Below are positions 1-54,325 of a stretch of 64,000 nucleotides of DNA, piece by piece. The notes under the pieces are model-generated. The model saw nothing but the letters and a program-made list of their open reading frames with translations, was not told where the DNA came from and did no database searches. How positions within the stretch are numbered: position 1 is the first letter of the stretch; each line of letters begins with the position of its first letter. The stretch lies in assembly GCF_988243305.1 (NCBI RefSeq), contig NZ_OZ547136.1; one strand, 5' to 3'. The position numbers were made by a program, and so were the translations under genes.

Positions 1-547
1 TAATCCACACCTGGTCCGACTCATCAAGGCAGATTTCAATAAAGTGGTTACCCGTTCCCAGCGTTCCCAGGTGTTTATAGTTGTTAGTGTTAAGGAAACG
101 GGGATATTTTTGCGTTAACCACTGATAACCGGCTTCCAGCTCAGCCCATTTCGCATCGACGTTAACAGGCGGATTTTCCCATGCGCCTTTATCACGTTTA
201 CAACGTCCGGTAGTACGCCCGTGCGGCACGGCAGTTTCAATCGCCTGACGCAGTTCTGCCAGGTTTTCAGGCAGGTCAGCCGCCGTTAACGCGGTGCGCA
301 GCGCGTTCATTCCACAACCGATATCCACGCCCACCGCCGCCGGAATAATCGCCCCTTTGGTTGGGATCACGCTACCAATGGTGGAACCTTTACCCAGGTG
401 TACATCAGGCATTACCGCAATATGTTTGAAAATAAACGGCATCTTCGCCGTATTAATAAGTTGCTGACGCGCATCGGCCTCTACCGGCACGCCTTTGGTC
501 CACATTTTTACCGGGGCATTTTCAGTGGTCAGTAATTCGTAATTCAT
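1..547 (-). CDS. rtcB: RNA ligase RtcB, N-terminal part (gene runs off the window start)
   Basis: Reverse translation from the ATG at 545-547 reads MNYELLTTENAPVKMWTKGVPVE, matching the RtcB N-terminus. Absent from the ORF track because it is cut by the window edge. Confidence 0.85.
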   Translation of the reverse strand, partial: MNYELLTTENAPVKMWTKGVPVEADARQQLINTAKMPFIFKHIAVMPDVHLGKGSTIGSVIPTKGAIIPAAVGVDIGCGMNALRTALTAADLPENLAELRQAIETAVPHGRTTGRCKRDKGAWENPPVNVDAKWAELEAGYQWLTQKYPRFLNTNNYKHLGTLGTGNHFIEICLDESDQVWI

Positions 548-584
548 TTTGTTTTTCTCTTTTCGTTGTTTGCTGTCCTGATAA

Positions 585-601
585 TTGCAACCGTCGTGCC
601 A
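585..601 (-). promoter_or_regulatory. sigma-54 (-24/-12) promoter of rtcBA
   Basis: Plus strand reads ttgcaa-ccgtc-gtgcca, i.e. TGGCAC-N5-TTGCA on the minus strand, about 40 bp upstream of the rtcB start and divergent from rtcR. Confidence 0.8.
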
Positions 602-735
602 GAAAATTAAATAAGCAGATTAATTTTTTAATTTATTGTTTCTAAAAAGATTATATCTTTACGTCCGTAAACGGAGATTTCCCGCAAAGCCAATTTACCG
701 ATAATGAAATATCGTCTTTTATAAGGATATCTAAG

Positions 736-2334
736 ATGCGTAAAACAGTGGCTTTTGGCTTTGTCGGTACCGTGCTGGATTATGCCGGACGCGGCAGTCA
801 GCGCTGGTCAAAATGGCGTCCGACACTCTGTTTATGCCAGCAAGAATCGTTGGTCATCGATCGACTGGAATTATTGCATGACGCCCGCTCGCGCTCGCTA
901 TTTGAAACGCTTAAACGCGATATCGCCAGCGTTTCGCCAGAAACAGAAGTGGTGAGCGTTGAGATTGAACTGCATAACCCGTGGGATTTCGAAGAGGTTT
1001 ACGCCTGCCTGCATGATTTCGCCCGTGGTTACGCGTTCCAGCCAGAAAAAGAAGACTATTTAATTCACATCACCACCGGTACCCACGTCGCGCAGATTTG
1101 CTGGTTTCTGCTGGCAGAAGCGCGTTATCTACCCGCCCGGTTGATACAATCTTCACCACCGCGCAAAAAAGAACAACCGCGCGGCGCAGGTGAAGTGACG
1201 ATTATCGATCTCGATTTAAGCCGTTATAACGCCATCGCCAGCCGCTTTGCCGAGGAACGCCAGCAAACCCTCGATTTCCTCAAATCCGGCATTGCCACGC
1301 GTAACCCCCACTTCAACCGCATGATTGAGCAGATCGAAAAAGTGGCGATTAAATCCCGCGCACCGATCCTGCTTAACGGCCCAACCGGTGCGGGCAAGTC
1401 GTTTCTGGCACGACGCATCTTCGAATTAAAACAGGCGCGGCATCAGTTTAGCGGCGCGTTTGTGGAAGTGAACTGCGCCACCCTGCGCGGCGATACCGCC
1501 ATGTCGACGCTGTTTGGTCATGTGAAAGGCGCGTTCACCGGGGCGCGGGAGTCGCGGGAAGGATTATTACGCAGCGCCAACGGTGGAATGTTGTTTCTTG
1601 ATGAGATTGGCGAACTGGGCGCAGACGAACAGGCGATGTTGCTGAAAGCCATTGAAGAGAAAACCTTTTACCCGTTTGGCAGCGATCGCCAGGTGAGCAG
1701 TGATTTTCAGCTGATCGCCGGAACGGTGCGCGATTTGCGTCAGTTGGTTGCCGAAGGCAAATTTCGCGAAGACCTGTACGCACGCATTAATCTCTGGACC
1801 TTCACCCTGCCGGGGCTGCGCCAGCGCCAGGAAGATATCGAACCGAACCTGGATTATGAAGTGGAGCGCCACGCCGCGCTTACTGGCGACAGCGTGCGTT
1901 TTAACACCGAAGCACGGCGCGCCTGGCTGGCTTTTGCGACATCTCCCCAGGCAACATGGCGCGGTAACTTTCGAGAACTTTCTGCCAGCGTCACGCGGAT
2001 GGCAACCTTTGCCGATAGCGGGCGCATTACTCTGGAAACCGTAGAAGATGAGATAAACCGTCTGCGCTATAACTGGCAGGAGAGTCGCCCCTCCGCGCTT
2101 CCGGCGTTGCTGGGCGCTGAGGCAGAAAACATCGACCTCTTTGATCGACTGCAACTGGAACACGTAATAGCCATCTGCCGCCAGGCAAAGTCACTTTCTG
2201 CTGCCGGACGCCAGCTTTTTGACGTTTCGCGCCAGGGCAAAGCCAGCGTCAATGACGCGGATCGGCTACGCAAATACCTGGCGCGTTTTGGTCTGACGTG
2301 GGAAGCCGTGCAGGATCAGCACAGCTCCAGTTGA
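736..2334 (+). CDS. rtcR: sigma-54-dependent transcriptional activator RtcR
   Basis: 532-aa ORF with AAA+ motifs (GPTGAGKS, GAFTGA loop) and expected position next to rtcB. Confidence 0.9.
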   Translation: MRKTVAFGFVGTVLDYAGRGSQRWSKWRPTLCLCQQESLVIDRLELLHDARSRSLFETLKRDIASVSPETEVVSVEIELHNPWDFEEVYACLHDFARGYAFQPEKEDYLIHITTGTHVAQICWFLLAEARYLPARLIQSSPPRKKEQPRGAGEVTIIDLDLSRYNAIASRFAEERQQTLDFLKSGIATRNPHFNRMIEQIEKVAIKSRAPILLNGPTGAGKSFLARRIFELKQARHQFSGAFVEVNCATLRGDTAMSTLFGHVKGAFTGARESREGLLRSANGGMLFLDEIGELGADEQAMLLKAIEEKTFYPFGSDRQVSSDFQLIAGTVRDLRQLVAEGKFREDLYARINLWTFTLPGLRQRQEDIEPNLDYEVERHAALTGDSVRFNTEARRAWLAFATSPQATWRGNFRELSASVTRMATFADSGRITLETVEDEINRLRYNWQESRPSALPALLGAEAENIDLFDRLQLEHVIAICRQAKSLSAAGRQLFDVSRQGKASVNDADRLRKYLARFGLTWEAVQDQHSSS

Positions 2335-3074
2335 ATATGATGGTCCGTCAGCACCTGCATCACGCTTACTGGCGGCGGGGCGTCGGTGTAGACGGCATCT
2401 ACCATGCTGATACTGCCCATATTGACCATCGCGTTACGGCCAAATTTCGAGTGATCGACAACCAGCATAACGTGGCGCGAGTTCTCAATAATGGCGCGTT
2501 TGGTGCGAACTTCGTGGTAATCGAACTCCAGCAGCGAGCCGTCGCTATCGATGCCACTAATCCCCAGAATGCCGAAATCAAGGCGGAACTGGGAGATAAA
2601 ATCGAGCGTCGCTTCGCCTATGATCCCACCATCGCGGCTACGTAATTCGCCACCGGCGAGAATAATGCGAAAATCTTCTTTTACCATCAACGTGTTAGCG
2701 ACGTTGAGATTGTTGGTGACAATGCGCAAATTGCTGTGATTAAGCAGCGCGTGCGCCACCGCTTCCGGGGTGGTGCCGATATCGATAAACAGCGTCGAGC
2801 CGTTGGGGATTTGCTCCGCCACTTTGCGGGCGATGCGCTCTTTTTCTTCGGTCTGGGTGGCCTTGCGATCGTGCCACGGGGTGTTAACCGAACTGGAAGG
2901 CAGCGCCGCGCCGCCATGATGCCGCAGGATCAGGTTTTGCTCTGCCAGCTCATTGAGGTCACGACGAATAGTCTGCGGGCTGACGGAGAAGTGCTCCACC
3001 AGTTCCTCGGTACTGACATAACCTTGCTGTTTAACCAGTTCGATAATACCGTTGTGACGTTGTGTTTGTTTCAT
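2316..3074 (-). CDS. glpR: DeoR-family glycerol-3-phosphate regulon repressor GlpR
   Basis: 252-aa ORF with an N-terminal HTH; 3' end overlaps the 3' end of rtcR by 19 bp (convergent). Confidence 0.9.
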   Translation of the reverse strand: MKQTQRHNGIIELVKQQGYVSTEELVEHFSVSPQTIRRDLNELAEQNLILRHHGGAALPSSSVNTPWHDRKATQTEEKERIARKVAEQIPNGSTLFIDIGTTPEAVAHALLNHSNLRIVTNNLNVANTLMVKEDFRIILAGGELRSRDGGIIGEATLDFISQFRLDFGILGISGIDSDGSLLEFDYHEVRTKRAIIENSRHVMLVVDHSKFGRNAMVNMGSISMVDAVYTDAPPPVSVMQVLTDHHIQLELC

Positions 3075-5987: not shown

Positions 5988-6004
5988 ATTAACGTAAGGT
6001 GGCC

Positions 6005-6026
6005 AGGTCAGATTTCAATCTGACCT
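6005..6026 (+). terminator. hairpin downstream of glpD (possible terminator)
   Basis: Inverted repeat aggtcagat-ttca-atctgacct 18 bp after the glpD stop; no clean T-run follows. Confidence 0.35.
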
Positions 6027-6051
6027 GAGACTGATGATAAACAAAAAAACT

Positions 6052-6155
6052 GCCTGATGCGCTACGCTTATCAGGCCTACGTGGTTTATGCAATATATTG
6101 AATTTGCATGATTTTGTAGACCAATAAGACGTTCACGTCGCATCCGGCATGGACA
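6052..6155. repeat. REP (repetitive extragenic palindromic) elements
   Basis: gcctgatgcgctacgcttatcaggcctac and gacgttcacgtcgcatccggcatgg resemble the E. coli REP consensus. Confidence 0.7.
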
Positions 6156-6493
6156 AAGCGCATATACAACCGATAACCAAAGTTGTAATTCCAGAAGTGA
6201 AATACGCCTGATCATGAGCGGGATAGAGAACAGTATCTCCCCAGAAAACTCAGCGTAATAATACAAGCAGCCAGCGCAACCACCGTCGGCCATATCAAGA
6301 ACGGTACAATAATAAAGCCGAGAAATACCACACCTAGCAGCAAAACACCGTGAATTTGTTCATCGCGCTAATTCCTTTCCCTCGAGGGTTATTTCATTGT
6401 GGGATACATCGGCACATAACCCATATTTTCCATCAAACTTTACCCTACCGATGGCTAAAAACGGGCTAATCCGATTCTGCACTGACTCACACA

Positions 6494-7645
6494 TCACTGG
6501 TATTCCACCCGCAAAACAGCCAGGGCATTATAACGACCCGCAGCAGGGCGTCGCCCTGTGGTACTTACAGGGAGAGACAGAAAAGTCACATCTGCCGTCT
6601 GAGCTGACTCAGCCCGGTTTTCAACTAACTTAAATGGCACACCAACATGCGCAGCAAGAGCGTTCAAGTCTACGGATTCCTGTTGGCTATCCATAATCAT
6701 AATGCCAACGTCGGGGTTATCCTCCGCCTGAATAATGCTTTGCCGACCATTAACATCTCTCGTTGATGAAATATTGCCATCAAAAACCAGCGTCATTACG
6801 GCATCAATATCTTTGTTCGTACAGTTTATCGGAATAGTGGTTGCCACTGGAGAAACGCCCGTGGGCTTCACTCCAGCACCAGCCCGACTTAATTCGCTGG
6901 CCCAGACATCCGGCATATTAACGGTAAAACTAGTTCCCTCATTAATTGTGCAACCTTGTGGAACTTCAATATTTAAGTTGCCAATATAAGCATTAAATAC
7001 TGGAATTGGTCCGTGCTCTGTTGGAAACTGGCTGACATACAAAGAAACCAGCAATACGTTATTTATTGATATATCGGATATTATTTTTTTATCAAGTCTG
7101 ATTTTTATATAACCTTCTGTTCCTGAGGCCCAACTTGATGGTTTACTTCTGTCTGCTGGATAATTGGTGCTATAGTTGTCAAAAGGTACTGCCTTATCTG
7201 TCATTGTGCCATTTTTATTATAGAGCTTTACATGTGTCGAGACAGATATTTCATGAGTCAAAGGAATAAATATATCGCTCCCCTGATGATCACCAGACGC
7301 TCCTGACGGATCAATCCCAGAAACACCAGAAAAATAAACCTCATAATCATCCAGAGAATTACAATAAGCCTTATAATGCCCTATTTTCCAGTCCTGCGAG
7401 GGTAATACTGTCCCAGGCGAATTATTATTAACATCTGAGACAATTACCGTACCAAAATTATAAGAAAATGTCGCAGGAGTAGTATTATTACCTGGTGCAC
7501 CAGGATAACAAAAGGCGCGATCCCGTCCCATATCTTCAGCATATACTATGTTATAGCAGCTACTGACTAAAAGAACAAACAATATACAAATTGCTTTTAT
7601 ATTTCCCCAAAAATAAGTAAGCATCATGCTTCTCCAGTTATCCAT
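6494..7645 (-). CDS. fimbrial tip adhesin-like subunit
   Basis: 383-aa ORF, last gene of the fimbrial operon; N-terminal signal peptide; C-terminus ends VEYQ like FimH-type pilins. Confidence 0.7.
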   Translation of the reverse strand: MDNWRSMMLTYFWGNIKAICILFVLLVSSCYNIVYAEDMGRDRAFCYPGAPGNNTTPATFSYNFGTVIVSDVNNNSPGTVLPSQDWKIGHYKAYCNSLDDYEVYFSGVSGIDPSGASGDHQGSDIFIPLTHEISVSTHVKLYNKNGTMTDKAVPFDNYSTNYPADRSKPSSWASGTEGYIKIRLDKKIISDISINNVLLVSLYVSQFPTEHGPIPVFNAYIGNLNIEVPQGCTINEGTSFTVNMPDVWASELSRAGAGVKPTGVSPVATTIPINCTNKDIDAVMTLVFDGNISSTRDVNGRQSIIQAEDNPDVGIMIMDSQQESVDLNALAAHVGVPFKLVENRAESAQTADVTFLSLPVSTTGRRPAAGRYNALAVLRVEYQ

Positions 7646-8441
7646 GTATCGCTACTGCACCCATAATAGCATTATTTTGTAAAACATTTAATTTTACGCT
7701 CCATACGGGTAAGGCATTATTGTAAAGATCTAGTGTTTGCCAGTTAATCTCACAATATCCTTGCCGCTGACACCAATCCTGTTGGCGATGACTAAATGGT
7801 GCAACCATGCCACCATTTATGCTTTTACCATCAATAGATAAATTATAGAGTGTCACATACCAGGGCGTAGGGTTAAAAACGGTGACAGCTTCATTGTTTC
7901 GCGACCAGCGTAACTGTTGATAAGCGTCAAGTGGATTACCTGATAACGTCTCTGGGCGGTAAAATATTTTCATCCTATTACGTACAGCCACCTGGAGTTG
8001 ATTTTCATTCTTAAGCTGTGAGTTTTGTTCCTGAGCAGGTAACGCTGCAATATTCAGTATAAATAAACTCTCACGATCTATAGGTAACTGCCCCCCCACG
8101 CGATTGATTCTTATTTTGGTATTTTTATCTTGTTTAAGTACCAATAATGGTGGTGTGGCAATAAACGCCTTATCTGGAAGTAAAGGCTGGGATTCCAGTG
8201 TCCCTTTTAACTGACGTCCATCATCAGGTGTCACGGAAATTTTAACCAGCATATCTTTACTGGCAGTATTTTTAAGCTCGACCGAAATTGATGACTGCTT
8301 TTCTGGGTAAACAAAACGAGTACCGCCAACAACAACTCCTGCCTGCGCATTTGTGCAACATATTAAAATGCATATCAGCACGTTAATCATAAGTGACGAT
8401 AAAGGAAACTGATGCATTCGCATCTCCTGGTTGTACATCAT
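7638..8441 (-). CDS. periplasmic fimbrial chaperone (PapD-like), second chaperone of operon
   Basis: 267-aa ORF with a signal peptide and chaperone-like motifs. Start is uncertain; the first ATGs overlap the upstream gene. Confidence 0.75.
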   Translation of the reverse strand: MMYNQEMRMHQFPLSSLMINVLICILICCTNAQAGVVVGGTRFVYPEKQSSISVELKNTASKDMLVKISVTPDDGRQLKGTLESQPLLPDKAFIATPPLLVLKQDKNTKIRINRVGGQLPIDRESLFILNIAALPAQEQNSQLKNENQLQVAVRNRMKIFYRPETLSGNPLDAYQQLRWSRNNEAVTVFNPTPWYVTLYNLSIDGKSINGGMVAPFSHRQQDWCQRQGYCEINWQTLDLYNNALPVWSVKLNVLQNNAIMGAVAIHG

Positions 8442-8907
8442 TTTTTATAGCTTTATAAGCAGCAAAGAAATGCAATGTATTATCTACCAATGGTGTAAGG
8501 GCATAACTTGTACTCTTTATACCATTACTAATACTTTGTCTGTTGTTATCAAAAATAGCCAGTGCTAACCCATCGACTGAGCCCTCTTCCAGTTTATATA
8601 GGGCTGCGTCTTCACTAACTGGTATTCCATCAAACGTGACATTGGCATGACTGACATCACTGCCACAACGGGTTAACTTTACAGAGAAACCAATTTTTTC
8701 AGTAACACTCCCTGAATTTCTCACCATATAGCTGGGAACATCAGGCATGTTAACTGTGAAATTTTTAGATTCATCGGCAACAATACAAGTCTTTGCCGTT
8801 ATGATTCCTTCTATACGTACAACACCTGTATGTGTTGTATCATCAGCAATGGATGACATAGATATCACAGAGAATAATAGGGCAATTAAATTCCAATATC
8901 GTGTCAT
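8383..8907 (-). CDS. fimbrial minor subunit
   Basis: 174-aa ORF, signal peptide, paired Cys, C-terminal FIVTYD beta-strand typical of chaperone-usher pilins. Confidence 0.75.
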   Translation of the reverse strand: MTRYWNLIALLFSVISMSSIADDTTHTGVVRIEGIITAKTCIVADESKNFTVNMPDVPSYMVRNSGSVTEKIGFSVKLTRCGSDVSHANVTFDGIPVSEDAALYKLEEGSVDGLALAIFDNNRQSISNGIKSTSYALTPLVDNTLHFFAAYKAIKNDVQPGDANASVSFIVTYD

Positions 8908-8914
8908 ATTAACC

Positions 8915-9487
8915 TCACTGATAGTCTATATCAAAGTACAATAGTGCGTTCGCCTGTCCCGCATGTACGTTTTGCTGAGTTGACTTATAGCGGAGTTTAA
9001 AGGTTAAACTGGCATCGCCATTATTATTTAAAATTAACTCTTTGAATCCTGACTCACTATTAATTGCTATAATTTTATCATTACTGTCTAAAATTTCGAT
9101 GCCCACTCCAGTTGCACTATCCGCGCTGGAAGTAAGGCGTAATAAAGTGGTATTTATAGCATCAGCATCCCCGGTAAACTGCACATTAGCACTTACTCCT
9201 GAACTATAAACAGTACTGGTTGTTGTAGGACATCCTTCCAGATTGATCGTAAATGTATGGCTGCCAGAAACATCCCCTACATTCAAAAAATCATTGACGT
9301 CATAAGTTCCCATGTTTACTGGCTGGTCTTTACTTCCAGTTGTAATATCACACGTTTTTGCTAATAATTGTCCTGTAAATGTGACCACTACAGTATCGTT
9401 AGCCAGTGCGTTATATGAAATCACCATCATGAACAATGATCTAAACATTAATAGAATAAATTTTTGTAATATATTCATTAGCGGCAC
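8915..9487 (-). CDS. fimbrial minor subunit
   Basis: 190-aa ORF, signal peptide, C-terminal FDIDYQ pilin donor-strand-like end. Confidence 0.75.
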   Translation of the reverse strand: MPLMNILQKFILLMFRSLFMMVISYNALANDTVVVTFTGQLLAKTCDITTGSKDQPVNMGTYDVNDFLNVGDVSGSHTFTINLEGCPTTTSTVYSSGVSANVQFTGDADAINTTLLRLTSSADSATGVGIEILDSNDKIIAINSESGFKELILNNNGDASLTFKLRYKSTQQNVHAGQANALLYFDIDYQ

Positions 9488-11436
9488 TCCAGATTTGCAT
9501 AGCTAATGGCATTATCCAGTTCGCTTTTCGGTAATTGATAACTTGCCCGACATTGCTGATAAGCACTTTCTCCCCACTGTATATTTATTATGCCTTGTAA
9601 AGGCAAACCGGAGAGATAAACCTGCCCACTGTCACCCACTATTCCTGTAATCTGAGTTGTCCCCTCAGTGGGTACACTGACCGTCGCACCAAATGGAACT
9701 GGTTTATTACGATAGTGAACATTAAATAAACCTCGAATACCGACATGTGCATTAAACTCAGCACGAACTAAAGCACCTTTGCTGGGTATCACTTCCATAG
9801 TAGTAGCATCTAATTCTGTATGCATACTCATAGACATAGGGTCTAAAGAGATATTATTACGCCGATATTCCGTGGCATAAGGTACGACAGCATAGCCACG
9901 CCAGTCTGTTTTAACCCCCGTTCCGCGTTCCACATTTACATTGTTTGCCCCAGGTGCTTTTATCAGTATATTTGTTTCACCTAACGGCTGACTTAGCGTG
10001 AGACCATTTTCGTGAACAACCAGGGCCCCACTTAAACCATAGTTAAATTGCTGGTTACCATTATTATCGTAGCTGTATCCAGAATTTAGTGAACCATATG
10101 TACCACGGTAATTTAAACCTACCGCGCCATTTTCGCCATTATTCTGGTTAGCAAAATTTTGTTGAATATTATAGTTGAGATTATGTTGTTCCAGCAGCGA
10201 TCCAGATACTCCAGCATACTGATTCACATGACCGCTATTATCCTGACTATAACCATAAGTTGCTGTCATAGAATTTGTCGCAGTACGCCCATCGACAGCT
10301 GGTGATAACCAATTGCTGATCGGCAATGAGACATTTACGGATAAGATTCTGTCCGCATCTGAACCTGGTGACTTGCTATAATTATAAGCAATATTTAAAT
10401 AAATCCCATGTACACTCGTATTATAGCCGACCTGATACAAGGTATCTTTATTATTCGTATTCCAGTAAGTTTGTTGACTTGCCGCCAAATACATAGAGCC
10501 ATATTCGCCCAATGGTTGCGATATATTTGCCTGAAACTTTCCTCTTTTGCTATAACGTAAATTATAAAAATCATTCCAGTTATAAACATAGTCTTTTTCA
10601 TTAAGGGTATCTGGATCGATAACCGTACCCGACATTTGTTTGTATGTGGTATCACTCAACGAATAAAATCCCTCCGTCGAATAGCGATAACCAATAATCT
10701 GAAAAGCCGTACCTGTCTGCACTAACGATTTTGAATATAGGAAACGGTACGATTGCCCTTGATGTTTACTGCCATCGGCAAGCGTGCTATTGGCTTGCGT
10801 TAAATCAAATGACGTCGCACCAAACATACCAAGGTTGAACCCAAGCCCGAGTGCTATTGCCCGATAATTATTTGAGTATTGCATCCCTCCGTAGGCGGTA
10901 ATATCCCAGGGTAACCCCCAAATCAAATCTCCTTGAAAGACATTCGGACTGTTTTGATTATAGCTATTGCTACGATATTTACCGGCAGTTGCCGAATATT
11001 TAATATGCCCTTCGCGTTGAAGAATGGGAACAGCGGCGTAAGGAATAGTATAGATAGTTTCGGAATTATCAGACTCTTTGATCGTAACTTCCAAATCCCC
11101 AGCGGAAGACGTAGGGTTCAGATCGTTGATTTCAAAGGGTCCCGGTGGAGTATATGTCTGATAAATAACATAGCCATTTTGTTTGATCGTTACCTGAGCA
11201 TTGCTTTTAGCAATACCGCGCACAGTGGGGGCAAAACCACTTTGGCTATCGGGTAGCATGTTTTCATCGGATTCAAGTTTAGCACCACGAATACTCACAC
11301 TGTCGAAAACATCCGATGAAGACCAGGTACTGATGAATCCCCTAATGATTTTGGTAAAAATCATTAAGTTAAGGTAGATACACATCTTGTCATATGATCA
11401 AATGGTTTCGCCAAAAATCAATAATCAGACAACAAG

Positions 11437-54232: not shown

Positions 54233-54325
54233 TCAAATCCTCTCAATCGATATCTTCTGGCGCTTCAGTGGTAGCAACAACTGTGCCAGAGCTTAAGAGC
54301 AACGAGGTTATCATTCACTGTTTTA

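What the first reader, a model, noticed from the sequence alone, without database searches (positions are those of the whole stretch)
548..735. Divergent rtcR / rtcBA control region with a canonical sigma-54 promoter
TGGCAC-N5-TTGCA on the minus strand lies about 40 bp upstream of rtcB, consistent with RtcR-activated, sigma-54-dependent expression of the RNA repair operon. The AT-rich sequence further upstream could hold the activator binding sites.
Basis: partly seen in the sequence, partly recalled or inferred. Interest (0 to 1): 0.25.

Follow-up and report, generated by a model that had tools for sequence, protein, structure and literature searches.

The report
Known sigma-54 promoter of rtcBA

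Summary
Observation confirmed. Window 548-735 is exactly the 188-bp gap between rtcB (minus strand, ATG at 547) and rtcR (plus strand, ATG at 736). TGGCACGACGGTTGCA lies at 586-601 on the minus strand, 39 nt before the rtcB ATG. It is the only exact TGGCAC-N5-TTGCA in 64 kb (0.05 expected).

Interpretation supported, and already known. [quoted passage not shown] That study flags it as experimentally confirmed in EcoCyc, with a predicted start 28 nt before rtcB. That corresponds to window position 575, the start implied by the ApC primer published for the native promoter. The flanking gene scores as the NCBIfam RtcR equivalog and carries the GAFTGA loop.

The core is invariant in 7 E. coli strains and 4 other Escherichia species. 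A divergent -24/-12 element 127-176 nt from rtcR recurs in 20 of 26 loci from several phyla.

One correction: the AT-rich block (602-660, 14% GC) more likely holds the IHF bending site (AAACAATAAATTA, 629-641) than the activator sites. The best enhancer candidate is the palindrome GATA-N6-TATC at 700-713, next to the rtcR start. This is a comparative inference, not a demonstration.

Low interest; novelty: already known.

The parts
1..547 (-). 5' part of rtcB (RNA ligase), first 182 codons; the gene runs off the window start
   Evidence: Pfam RtcB PF01139 E=1.3e-41. RefSeq annotates the homologous K-12 ORF as rtcB with the same start.
548..575 (-). Inferred 28-nt rtcB leader, purine-rich, with a Shine-Dalgarno-like AAGAGA. 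The inferred transcription start is the C at 575; position -1 is the A at 576.
   Evidence: Counted from GG at -24/-25 and GC at -12/-13. Matches the start predicted 28 nt before rtcB in K-12 ChIP-seq and the ApC primer plus labelled ATP used for the native PrtcBA (ACA in the sequence). The leader aligns with the rsr leader of related genera.
586..601 (-). Sigma-54 promoter core TGGCACGACGGTTGCA (-26 to -11)
   Evidence: Only exact match in the window, 0.05 expected. Weight-matrix rank 2. Invariant in 7 E. coli strains and in 4 other Escherichia species. Identical to K-12 ChIP-seq site OS35.
602..660 (.). AT-rich spacer (13.6% GC), the probable DNA-bending segment between enhancer and promoter
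   Evidence: Composition. Varies between E. coli strains and is not conserved between genera.
629..641 (-). Candidate IHF site AAACAATAAATTA (one mismatch to WATCAANNNNTTR), centred near -60
   Evidence: It lies 27 nt upstream of the -24 T, in the same orientation and place as exact IHF consensus sites (17-29 nt) in 6 proteobacterial rtcR loci, where 0.37 were expected. An 'rtc IHF binding site' is mentioned, without sequence, in PMC9650030.
661..698 (.). GC-richer block conserved only within Escherichia, including the palindrome CCGTTTACGG (CCGGTTACGG in K-12); function unknown
700..713 (.). Palindrome GATAATGAAATATC (GATA-N6-TATC; extended form CGATA-N6-TATCG at 699-714), centred about -132 from the inferred rtcB start. 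Best candidate for the RtcR enhancer (UAS). It overlaps a -10-like GATAAT that could belong to the rtcR promoter.
   Evidence: The only 4+4 palindromic dyad found in at least 5 of 20 rtcR upstream regions (0.07 expected). Conserved in Klebsiella, Intestinirhabdus, Superficieibacter and one Pseudomonas while flanking sequence diverges. Lies inside the 175-nt fragment that gives an RtcR-responsive reporter (PMC5175333). Not demonstrated.
726..731 (.). GATATC, a further GATA/TATC half-site pair two helical turns from the palindrome, overlapping the rtcR ribosome-binding region
   Evidence: GATA/TATC tetramers are about 6-fold enriched in the 70 nt next to rtcR across 22 loci: 47 observed against 16 +/- 4 in shuffles.
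736..2334 (+). rtcR, sigma-54 enhancer-binding activator (CARF-type RtcR domain, AAA+ domain with GAFTGA, C-terminal DNA-binding part)
   Evidence: NCBIfam NF038308 at 851.9 bits (cut-off 650). Pfam PF06956 at residues 2-185 and PF00158 at 187-354. GAFTGA is visible in the translation.

Best explanation
Window 548-735 is the divergent rtcR / rtcBA control region of an Escherichia or Shigella-type chromosome.

Proposed mechanism: RNA polymerase carrying sigma-54 binds the -24/-12 element at 586-601 on the minus strand and stays in a closed complex. RtcR, encoded next door, binds an upstream enhancer when its CARF domain is relieved by an RNA-damage signal. My candidate for that enhancer is the GATA-N6-TATC palindrome at 700-713, with neighbouring GATA-type half-sites. 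IHF bends the AT-rich spacer (candidate site 629-641) and brings RtcR to the polymerase. ATP hydrolysis by RtcR then opens the promoter, and transcription of rtcB-rtcA starts at about position 575 with a 28-nt leader.

Shown here: the motif, its uniqueness in the window, its position and orientation, its conservation, and the gene identities. Shown in the literature for the identical K-12 sequence: sigma-54 occupancy, and dependence on RtcR and sigma-54. Inferred: the exact start site in this strain, the IHF site, the enhancer sequence, and possible autoregulation of rtcR through overlap of the enhancer with its own promoter.
For: - Exact motif: one match where 0.05 are expected; weight-matrix rank 2 in the window.
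- Geometry: minus strand, 39 nt before the rtcB ATG, inside a 188-bp divergent gap.
- Activator next door: RtcR equivalog with GAFTGA.
- Conservation: the core is invariant in 7 E. coli strains spread over 95-98% identity and in 4 other Escherichia species. A -24/-12 element reading away from rtcR, 127-176 nt from its start, is present in 20 of 26 loci from Proteobacteria, Verrucomicrobia and Desulfobacterota. It is followed by rtcB, rtcA or rsr.
- Literature: sigma-54 ChIP-seq peak on the identical 17-mer, EcoCyc-confirmed, with the start predicted 28 nt before rtcB. It is listed as a known promoter at -54 to -37. PrtcBA is RtcR-dependent in reporters carrying 175 nt upstream of rtcB. The native promoter was primed with ApC, which fits A(-1)C(+1) at 576/575.
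- IHF and enhancer candidates.
Against: - Nothing contradicts the promoter assignment.
- The weight-matrix score alone is within the range of the best chance hit in a shuffled 64-kb window.
- The native promoter is reported to be very weak in vitro.
- The IHF candidate has one mismatch in a very AT-rich context, where such matches are easy to get.
- The enhancer candidate rests on comparative data that are partly non-independent: four of the five exact GATA-N6-TATC loci are Enterobacterales.
- The enhancer candidate lies where rtcR's own promoter and ribosome-binding signals could also explain conservation.
- I could not read the original start-site mapping paper (Genschik et al. 1998). Its content is cited from memory and through papers that cite it.
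Confidence: 0.95

Rival explanations
1. The TGGCAC-N5-TTGCA match is a chance occurrence with no promoter function.
For: A weight-matrix score of 14.9 bits is about what the best hit in a shuffled 64-kb window reaches: mean 14.3, maximum 16.3.
Against: - Exact consensus expected 0.05 times.
- Correct strand and distance to rtcB, with a sigma-54 activator gene adjacent.
- Invariant core within otherwise variable intergenic DNA.
- Same architecture across phyla.
- ChIP-seq occupancy of the identical sequence in K-12.
Confidence: 0.01
2. One reading: the RtcR binding sites lie in the AT-rich block directly upstream of the promoter (602-660), not at the GATA palindrome.
For: - The block contains AT-rich imperfect palindromes, for example AAAATTAA/TTAATTTT at 603-610 and 620-627.
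- The RtcR enhancer sequence is listed as not known in a 2016 review, so no published sequence excludes this.
Against: - The block varies even among E. coli strains and is unrelated in other Enterobacterales that share 82-84% identical RtcR.
- It lies at -27 to -85, close for an enhancer.
- It coincides with the place where relatives carry exact IHF consensus sites.
- The only dyad shared across rtcR loci lies elsewhere.
Confidence: 0.15
3. The conserved GATA-N6-TATC element next to rtcR is not the RtcR enhancer. It would instead be part of rtcR's own sigma-70 promoter or leader, or the operator of another regulator.
For: - It lies 22-36 nt upstream of the rtcR ATG and contains a -10-like GATAAT.
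- Conservation near a start codon can reflect expression signals.
- The simple sigma-70 scan found no other promoter in the gap.
Against: - GATA/TATC half-sites recur with roughly 10-bp phasing in distant taxa whose rtcR leaders are otherwise unrelated.
- The element keeps a roughly constant distance (about 100-125 bp) from the -24 element.
- Dual use, as enhancer overlapping the activator's own promoter, is how PspF and NorR regions work (general knowledge). The two readings are therefore not exclusive.
Confidence: 0.3
4. rtcBA in this strain is mainly expressed from another, RtcR-independent promoter, and the sigma-54 site is only a poised, mostly silent binding site.
For: - RtcR-independent induction and 'alternative promoters' are mentioned for Salmonella and E. 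coli.
- Most sigma-54 sites are transcriptionally inactive under standard conditions.
Against: - No sigma-70-like promoter was found in 450-850.
- Reporter and RT-qPCR work in E. coli shows RtcR dependence for many inducing conditions.
Confidence: 0.03

Closest known systems
E. coli K-12 rtcBA promoter (rtcBp), activated by RtcR and dependent on sigma-54 (Genschik et al. 1998; Engl et al. 2016, PMC5175333; Kotta-Loizou et al. 2022, PMC9650030; ChIP-seq site OS35 in Bonocora et al. 2015, PMC4591121)
   Same: - Identical 17-mer CTGGCACGACGGTTGCA.
- Same offsets from the rtcB ATG (-54 to -37).
- Same 188-bp divergent gap and same flanking genes (rtcB, rtcR, glpR).
- Same predicted 28-nt leader.
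   Different: - Five base differences from a K-12 strain within the gap: window 613, 628, 636, 637 and 673 (columns 91, 119, 120, 128 and 143 of alignment A1). None is in the -24/-12 core, the IHF candidate core or the GATA palindrome.
- The window matches no complete E. coli genome better than 98.4% over 400-900.
Salmonella-type rsr-yrlBA-rtcBA operon promoter (rsrp) with divergent rtcR
   Same: - Same activator and same divergent layout.
- The same kind of -24/-12 core and a homologous leader are seen here in Intestinirhabdus and Superficieibacter, which carry rsr and YrlA RNAs.
   Different: - In the window the leader runs straight into rtcB; rsr and the Y RNAs are absent.
- No Salmonella sequence was examined directly here.
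Other divergent enhancer-binding-protein / sigma-54 units with an IHF-bent spacer (pspF-pspA, norR-norVW)
   Same: - Activator gene transcribed away from its target promoter.
- Enhancer about 100-150 bp upstream, with an IHF site in between.
- Enhancer overlapping the activator's own promoter (general knowledge; NorR enhancers in PMC2831303 were listed but not read).
   Different: - Different sensory domain (CARF) and different signal.
- A different putative half-site (GATA-type), which has not been experimentally defined.

Membership tests
Sigma-54 (-24/-12) promoter | GG and GC doublets exactly 10 bp apart within TGGCAC-N5-TTGCW | tested here: met
   TGGCACGACGGTTGCA at 586-601 on the minus strand, with all 11 specified positions matching. 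It also fits the extended TGGCACG-N4-TTGCW.
Sigma-54 (-24/-12) promoter | More than chance; high score with a matrix built from bound sites | tested here: met
   0.05 exact matches expected. 14.94 bits, rank 2 in the window, above the median (14.16) of the 85 training sites. However, the best hit of shuffled windows averages 14.3, so the matrix alone is not decisive.
Sigma-54 (-24/-12) promoter | Intergenic, oriented toward a gene with a short leader | tested here: met
   Minus strand; inferred start at 575, 28 nt before the rtcB ATG at 547.
Sigma-54 (-24/-12) promoter | Occupied by sigma-54 holoenzyme in vivo | not testable with these tools
   Reported for the identical K-12 sequence: ChIP-seq OS35, fold above threshold 17 (PMC4591121).
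Sigma-54 (-24/-12) promoter | Mapped transcription start 11-13 nt downstream of the GC element | not testable with these tools
   - Original mapping (Genschik et al. 1998) could not be opened.
- Indirect support: the ApC primer at -1/+1 with labelled ATP for native PrtcBA fits A576-C575-A574.
- The promoter is flagged as 'confirmed' in EcoCyc.
Sigma-54 (-24/-12) promoter | Cognate enhancer-binding protein with AAA+ domain and GAFTGA loop | tested here: met
   RtcR is adjacent: PF00158 E=5.5e-51 and NF038308 at 851.9 bits against a cut-off of 650. GAFTGA is in the translation.
Sigma-54 (-24/-12) promoter | Upstream activator sequence bound by the activator | tested here: inconclusive
   - Candidate GATA-N6-TATC at 700-713 comes from comparative analysis.
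- No binding data exist.
- The RtcR enhancer is listed as not known in PMC4987338.
Sigma-54 (-24/-12) promoter | IHF site between enhancer and promoter (common, not obligatory) | tested here: inconclusive
   One-mismatch site at 629-641, in the same place and orientation as exact sites in 6 related loci. The AT-rich context makes chance matches likely.
rtcR / rtcBA RNA repair locus | RtcR with N-terminal CARF-type RtcR domain | tested here: met
   PF06956 at residues 2-185, E=7.7e-86.
rtcR / rtcBA RNA repair locus | RtcB ligase gene transcribed divergently from rtcR | tested here: met
   PF01139 on the 182 codons present. RefSeq annotation of homologous regions agrees.
rtcR / rtcBA RNA repair locus | rtcA cyclase downstream of rtcB | not testable with these tools
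   rtcA lies beyond the window start. It is present in the homologous K-12 region.

The most novel reading that the evidence does not exclude
The RtcR enhancer may be an array of GATA-type half-sites phased about 10 bp apart. The open literature I could search gives no sequence for it. In this window the array would be the palindrome GATA-N6-TATC at 700-713 plus GATATC at 726-731. It abuts the rtcR start codon and overlaps rtcR's own expression signals. RtcR would then both activate rtcBA and autoregulate rtcR from the same sites. The layout (GATA array, IHF site, -24/-12 element) would be conserved from Enterobacterales to Pseudomonas and, in altered form, beyond.
Probability: 0.45. Interest if true: 0.3.

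Novelty: already known. Interest (0 to 1): 0.08.

Why it matters
The promoter itself adds nothing new. It is one of about twenty sigma-54 promoters of E. coli listed as experimentally confirmed, and it controls the RtcB/RtcA RNA repair system, which has been linked to survival of ribosome-targeting antibiotics and tRNA damage.

The practical value here is as a positive control. A reader without tools correctly identified a real regulatory element from sequence alone.

The modest added value is a testable proposal for where RtcR and IHF bind. This could help people who build rtc reporters or hybrid promoters, since the native promoter is reported to be weak in vitro and the enhancer has been used without a published sequence definition.

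Tried and rejected
- Simple sigma-70 promoter and terminator scan of 450-850: nothing found, so the rtcR promoter remains unplaced.
- Direct and inverted repeat search in 540-745: only AT-rich low-complexity palindromes in the spacer. The tool did not report the short GATA-N6-TATC dyad; it emerged only from comparison across loci.
- Rfam on window 1-3000 at E<=1: no RNA family, so no Y RNA or riboswitch-type element in the leader.
- Weight-matrix scan as the sole test: informative for rank but not above the best chance hit in a shuffled window, so I did not rely on it alone.
- Attempt to read Genschik et al. 1998 (PubMed 9738023): not held.
- Search of the supplements of PMC9650030 for the UAS, IHF or hybrid promoter sequences: only plasmid descriptions, no sequence.
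- Literature search for an RtcR footprint or UAS definition: nothing specific.
- Considered and rejected that rtcR itself is sigma-54-dependent: there is no plus-strand -24/-12 match in the gap among the top matrix hits.

Full report
**What is in the sequence.** The window opens inside a minus-strand ORF whose ATG is at 547-545. A plus-strand ORF of 532 codons runs from 736 to 2334. The first matches Pfam RtcB (E=1.3e-41 on the 182 codons present). The second matches the NCBIfam equivalog 'RNA repair transcriptional activator RtcR' at 851.9 bits (cut-off 650). It has the Pfam RtcR (CARF-type) domain at residues 2-185 and the sigma-54 interaction domain at 187-354. The GAFTGA loop is visible in the translation. 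Next come glpR, glpG, glpE and glpD, the gene order of E. coli K-12. The finding's coordinates, 548-735, are therefore exactly the 188-bp divergent rtcB/rtcR gap.

**The motif.** On the minus strand, 601 to 586 reads TGGCACGACGGTTGCA. This is the only exact TGGCAC-N5-TTGCA in 64 kb. Dinucleotide-preserving shuffles give 0.05 per window. Its 3' end is 39 nt from the rtcB ATG.

The matrix was built from 85 intragenic sigma-54 ChIP-seq sites of E. coli K-12 (PMC4591121), a set that does not include the rtcB site. The site scores 14.94 bits and ranks second in the window. The top hit is the rpoH sigma-54 site at 54273-54289. The best hit in shuffled windows averaged 14.3 bits, so the matrix score alone would not prove anything. 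The case rests on the exact consensus together with context.

**Context and conservation.** The segment 400-900 is present in 4857 of 5426 complete E. coli genomes and is always annotated rtcB/rtcR. I aligned the gap from seven strains spread over the identity range. About 20% of columns in the spacer vary, but the stretch TTTTCTGGCACGACGGTTGCAATTATCA is invariant.

A scan of one genome per species with the RtcR protein returned 29 loci. The 16-mer is identical in four other Escherichia species. A -24/-12 element reading away from rtcR, 127-176 nt from its start, is present in 20 of 26 loci examined. These include Klebsiella, Intestinirhabdus, Superficieibacter, Iodobacter, Accumulibacter, Pseudomonas, Verrucomicrobia and Desulfobacterota. 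The first genes behind it are rtcB, rtcA, rsr or, in some, an SPFH-like gene. The layout is thus an old, conserved one.

**What the literature already says.**
- The identical 17-mer CTGGCACGACGGTTGCA is ChIP-seq peak OS35 upstream of rtcB (b3421) in K-12. Its fold-above-threshold score is 17, it is marked 'C' (experimentally confirmed in EcoCyc), and the predicted start lies 28 nt before rtcB.
- An earlier regulon study lists it among known sigma-54 promoters at -54 to -37 from the ATG. These are the same offsets as in the window.
- Counting from GG at -24/-25 and GC at -12/-13 puts +1 at the C of window position 575 and -1 at the A of 576. That agrees with the ApC primer and labelled ATP used for the native PrtcBA in vitro (ACA in the sequence).
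- The original description (Genschik et al. 1998) could not be opened. From memory, it reported the mapped start and the -12/-24 elements.

**The upstream AT-rich sequence.** Positions 602-660 are 13.6% GC. This block is the least conserved part of the gap, both among E. coli strains and between genera.

It contains two overlapping one-mismatch matches to the IHF consensus WATCAANNNNTTR. One of them, AAACAATAAATTA at 629-641 on the minus strand, lies 27 nt upstream of the -24 T. Six proteobacterial rtcR loci carry an exact IHF consensus in the same orientation, 17-29 nt from their -24 element, where 0.37 were expected from shuffles. A published hybrid promoter is described as containing 'the rtc IHF binding site' and 'the rtcBA UAS', without sequences. 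I conclude that the AT-rich block is most likely the IHF-bent spacer. This is inference.

**A candidate enhancer.** Between E. coli and Klebsiella, Intestinirhabdus or Superficieibacter (RtcR 82-84% identical), two segments of the region between rtcR and the promoter are clearly conserved. One is the promoter core. The other is about 40 nt next to the rtcR start, which contains CGATA-N6-TATCG (window 699-714).

I ran an exhaustive search of 4+4 palindromic dyads with spacers of 0-12 over 20 rtcR upstream regions. Only one dyad was present in five or more loci: GATA-N6-TATC (5 loci, 0.07 expected). The inverse arrangement TATC-N6-GATA occurs exactly in Accumulibacter and three Pseudomonas loci, and GATA-like half-sites tend to sit about 10 bp apart. 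GATA/TATC tetramers are about six-fold denser in the 70 nt next to rtcR than in the following 130 nt: 47 observed against 16 +/- 4 in shuffles, with a maximum of 30.

In the window the palindrome is centred near -132. A further GATATC at 726-731 lies two helical turns away. The palindrome falls inside the 175-nt RtcR-responsive reporter fragment.

Caveats:
- Several loci are related by descent, so they are not independent observations.
- The element lies where rtcR's own promoter (it contains a -10-like GATAAT) and ribosome-binding region could also be conserved.
- There are no binding data.
- A 2016 review lists the RtcR enhancer as not known, and I found no later definition.

I give this sub-claim roughly even odds. 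If it is right, the overlap with rtcR's expression signals suggests autoregulation, as in other divergent activator/sigma-54 units (general knowledge).

**Comparison and verdict.** This is the K-12 rtcBA promoter region in another Escherichia/Shigella-type strain. It has five substitutions in the gap, none in the core or in the candidate sites. Every sequence-testable defining feature of a sigma-54 promoter is met. Occupancy and start site are documented for the identical K-12 sequence but cannot be tested here. Novelty: already known. Interest is low. The only new element is a testable placement of the IHF and RtcR sites.

**Side observations.**
- The window also contains the known rpoH sigma-54 site and the strong intragenic glgA sigma-54 site of K-12.
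- A roughly 10.8-kb chaperone-usher fimbrial cluster lies between glpD and glgP. K-12 spacing has no room for it, and its usher gene is split by IS4- and IS3-family transposase genes.
- The rtcB leader aligns with the rsr leader of relatives, which suggests that Escherichia lost rsr and the Y RNAs by a deletion that kept the leader.

Noticed in passing
window 54273-54289 (-): CTGGCACAGTTGTTGCT is the top sigma-54 weight-matrix hit in the window (18.6 bits). It is identical to the K-12 ChIP-seq site OS36 upstream of rpoH, a known sigma-54 promoter of the heat-shock sigma factor gene.
   Followed up: partly
window 20211-20227 (-): AAGGCATGTTTTATGCA inside the glgA-like ORF (19290-20723) is identical to the strong intragenic sigma-54 ChIP-seq site IS43 of K-12 glgA (fold above threshold 49).
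   Followed up: partly
window about 6000-16800: A chaperone-usher fimbrial gene cluster (adhesin-like, two chaperones, minor and major subunits, usher) sits between glpD and glgP. The rtcB-to-glgA distance is about 10 kb longer than in K-12. The usher is split into a C-terminal part (9481-11385) and an N-terminal part (13971-14720) by an IS4-family (11437-12654, +) and an IS3-family (12536-13426, -) transposase gene.
   Followed up: partly
window 548-575 versus L011, L029, L010 (alignment A2): The rtcB leader, from promoter to ATG, aligns with the leader of rsr (Ro60-like) in Intestinirhabdus and Superficieibacter, where rsr and YrlA Y RNAs precede rtcB. Klebsiella oxytoca keeps an rsr-like start stub and has rtcB at +161. 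This suggests independent deletions of rsr-yrlBA that retained the promoter and leader.
   Followed up: partly
L014:2137-2209 (-), L013:1784-1851 (-): In a Pseudomonas and an Accumulibacter locus, a tRNA-like element (Rfam tRNA, 60 and 51 bits) lies in the transcript just downstream of the rtcR-divergent sigma-54 promoter. It is followed by an SPFH/band-7-like ORF rather than rtcB.
   Followed up: no
window 661-698: A GC-richer block (GGCTTTGCGGGAAATCTCCGTTTACGGACG on the rtcB strand) is conserved only within Escherichia. It contains the palindrome CCGTTTACGG; K-12 has CCGGTTACGG. Its function is unknown, and it could relate to the rtcR promoter.
   Followed up: no
window 2316-2334: The 3' ends of rtcR (+) and glpR (-) overlap by 19 nt, as in the K-12 annotation.
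   Followed up: partly
window 400-900: No complete E. coli genome among 5,426 matches this segment better than 98.4%, and 569 genomes lack it altogether. Together with the IS-disrupted fimbrial operon, this hints at a Shigella or an otherwise unrepresented Escherichia lineage.
   Followed up: no
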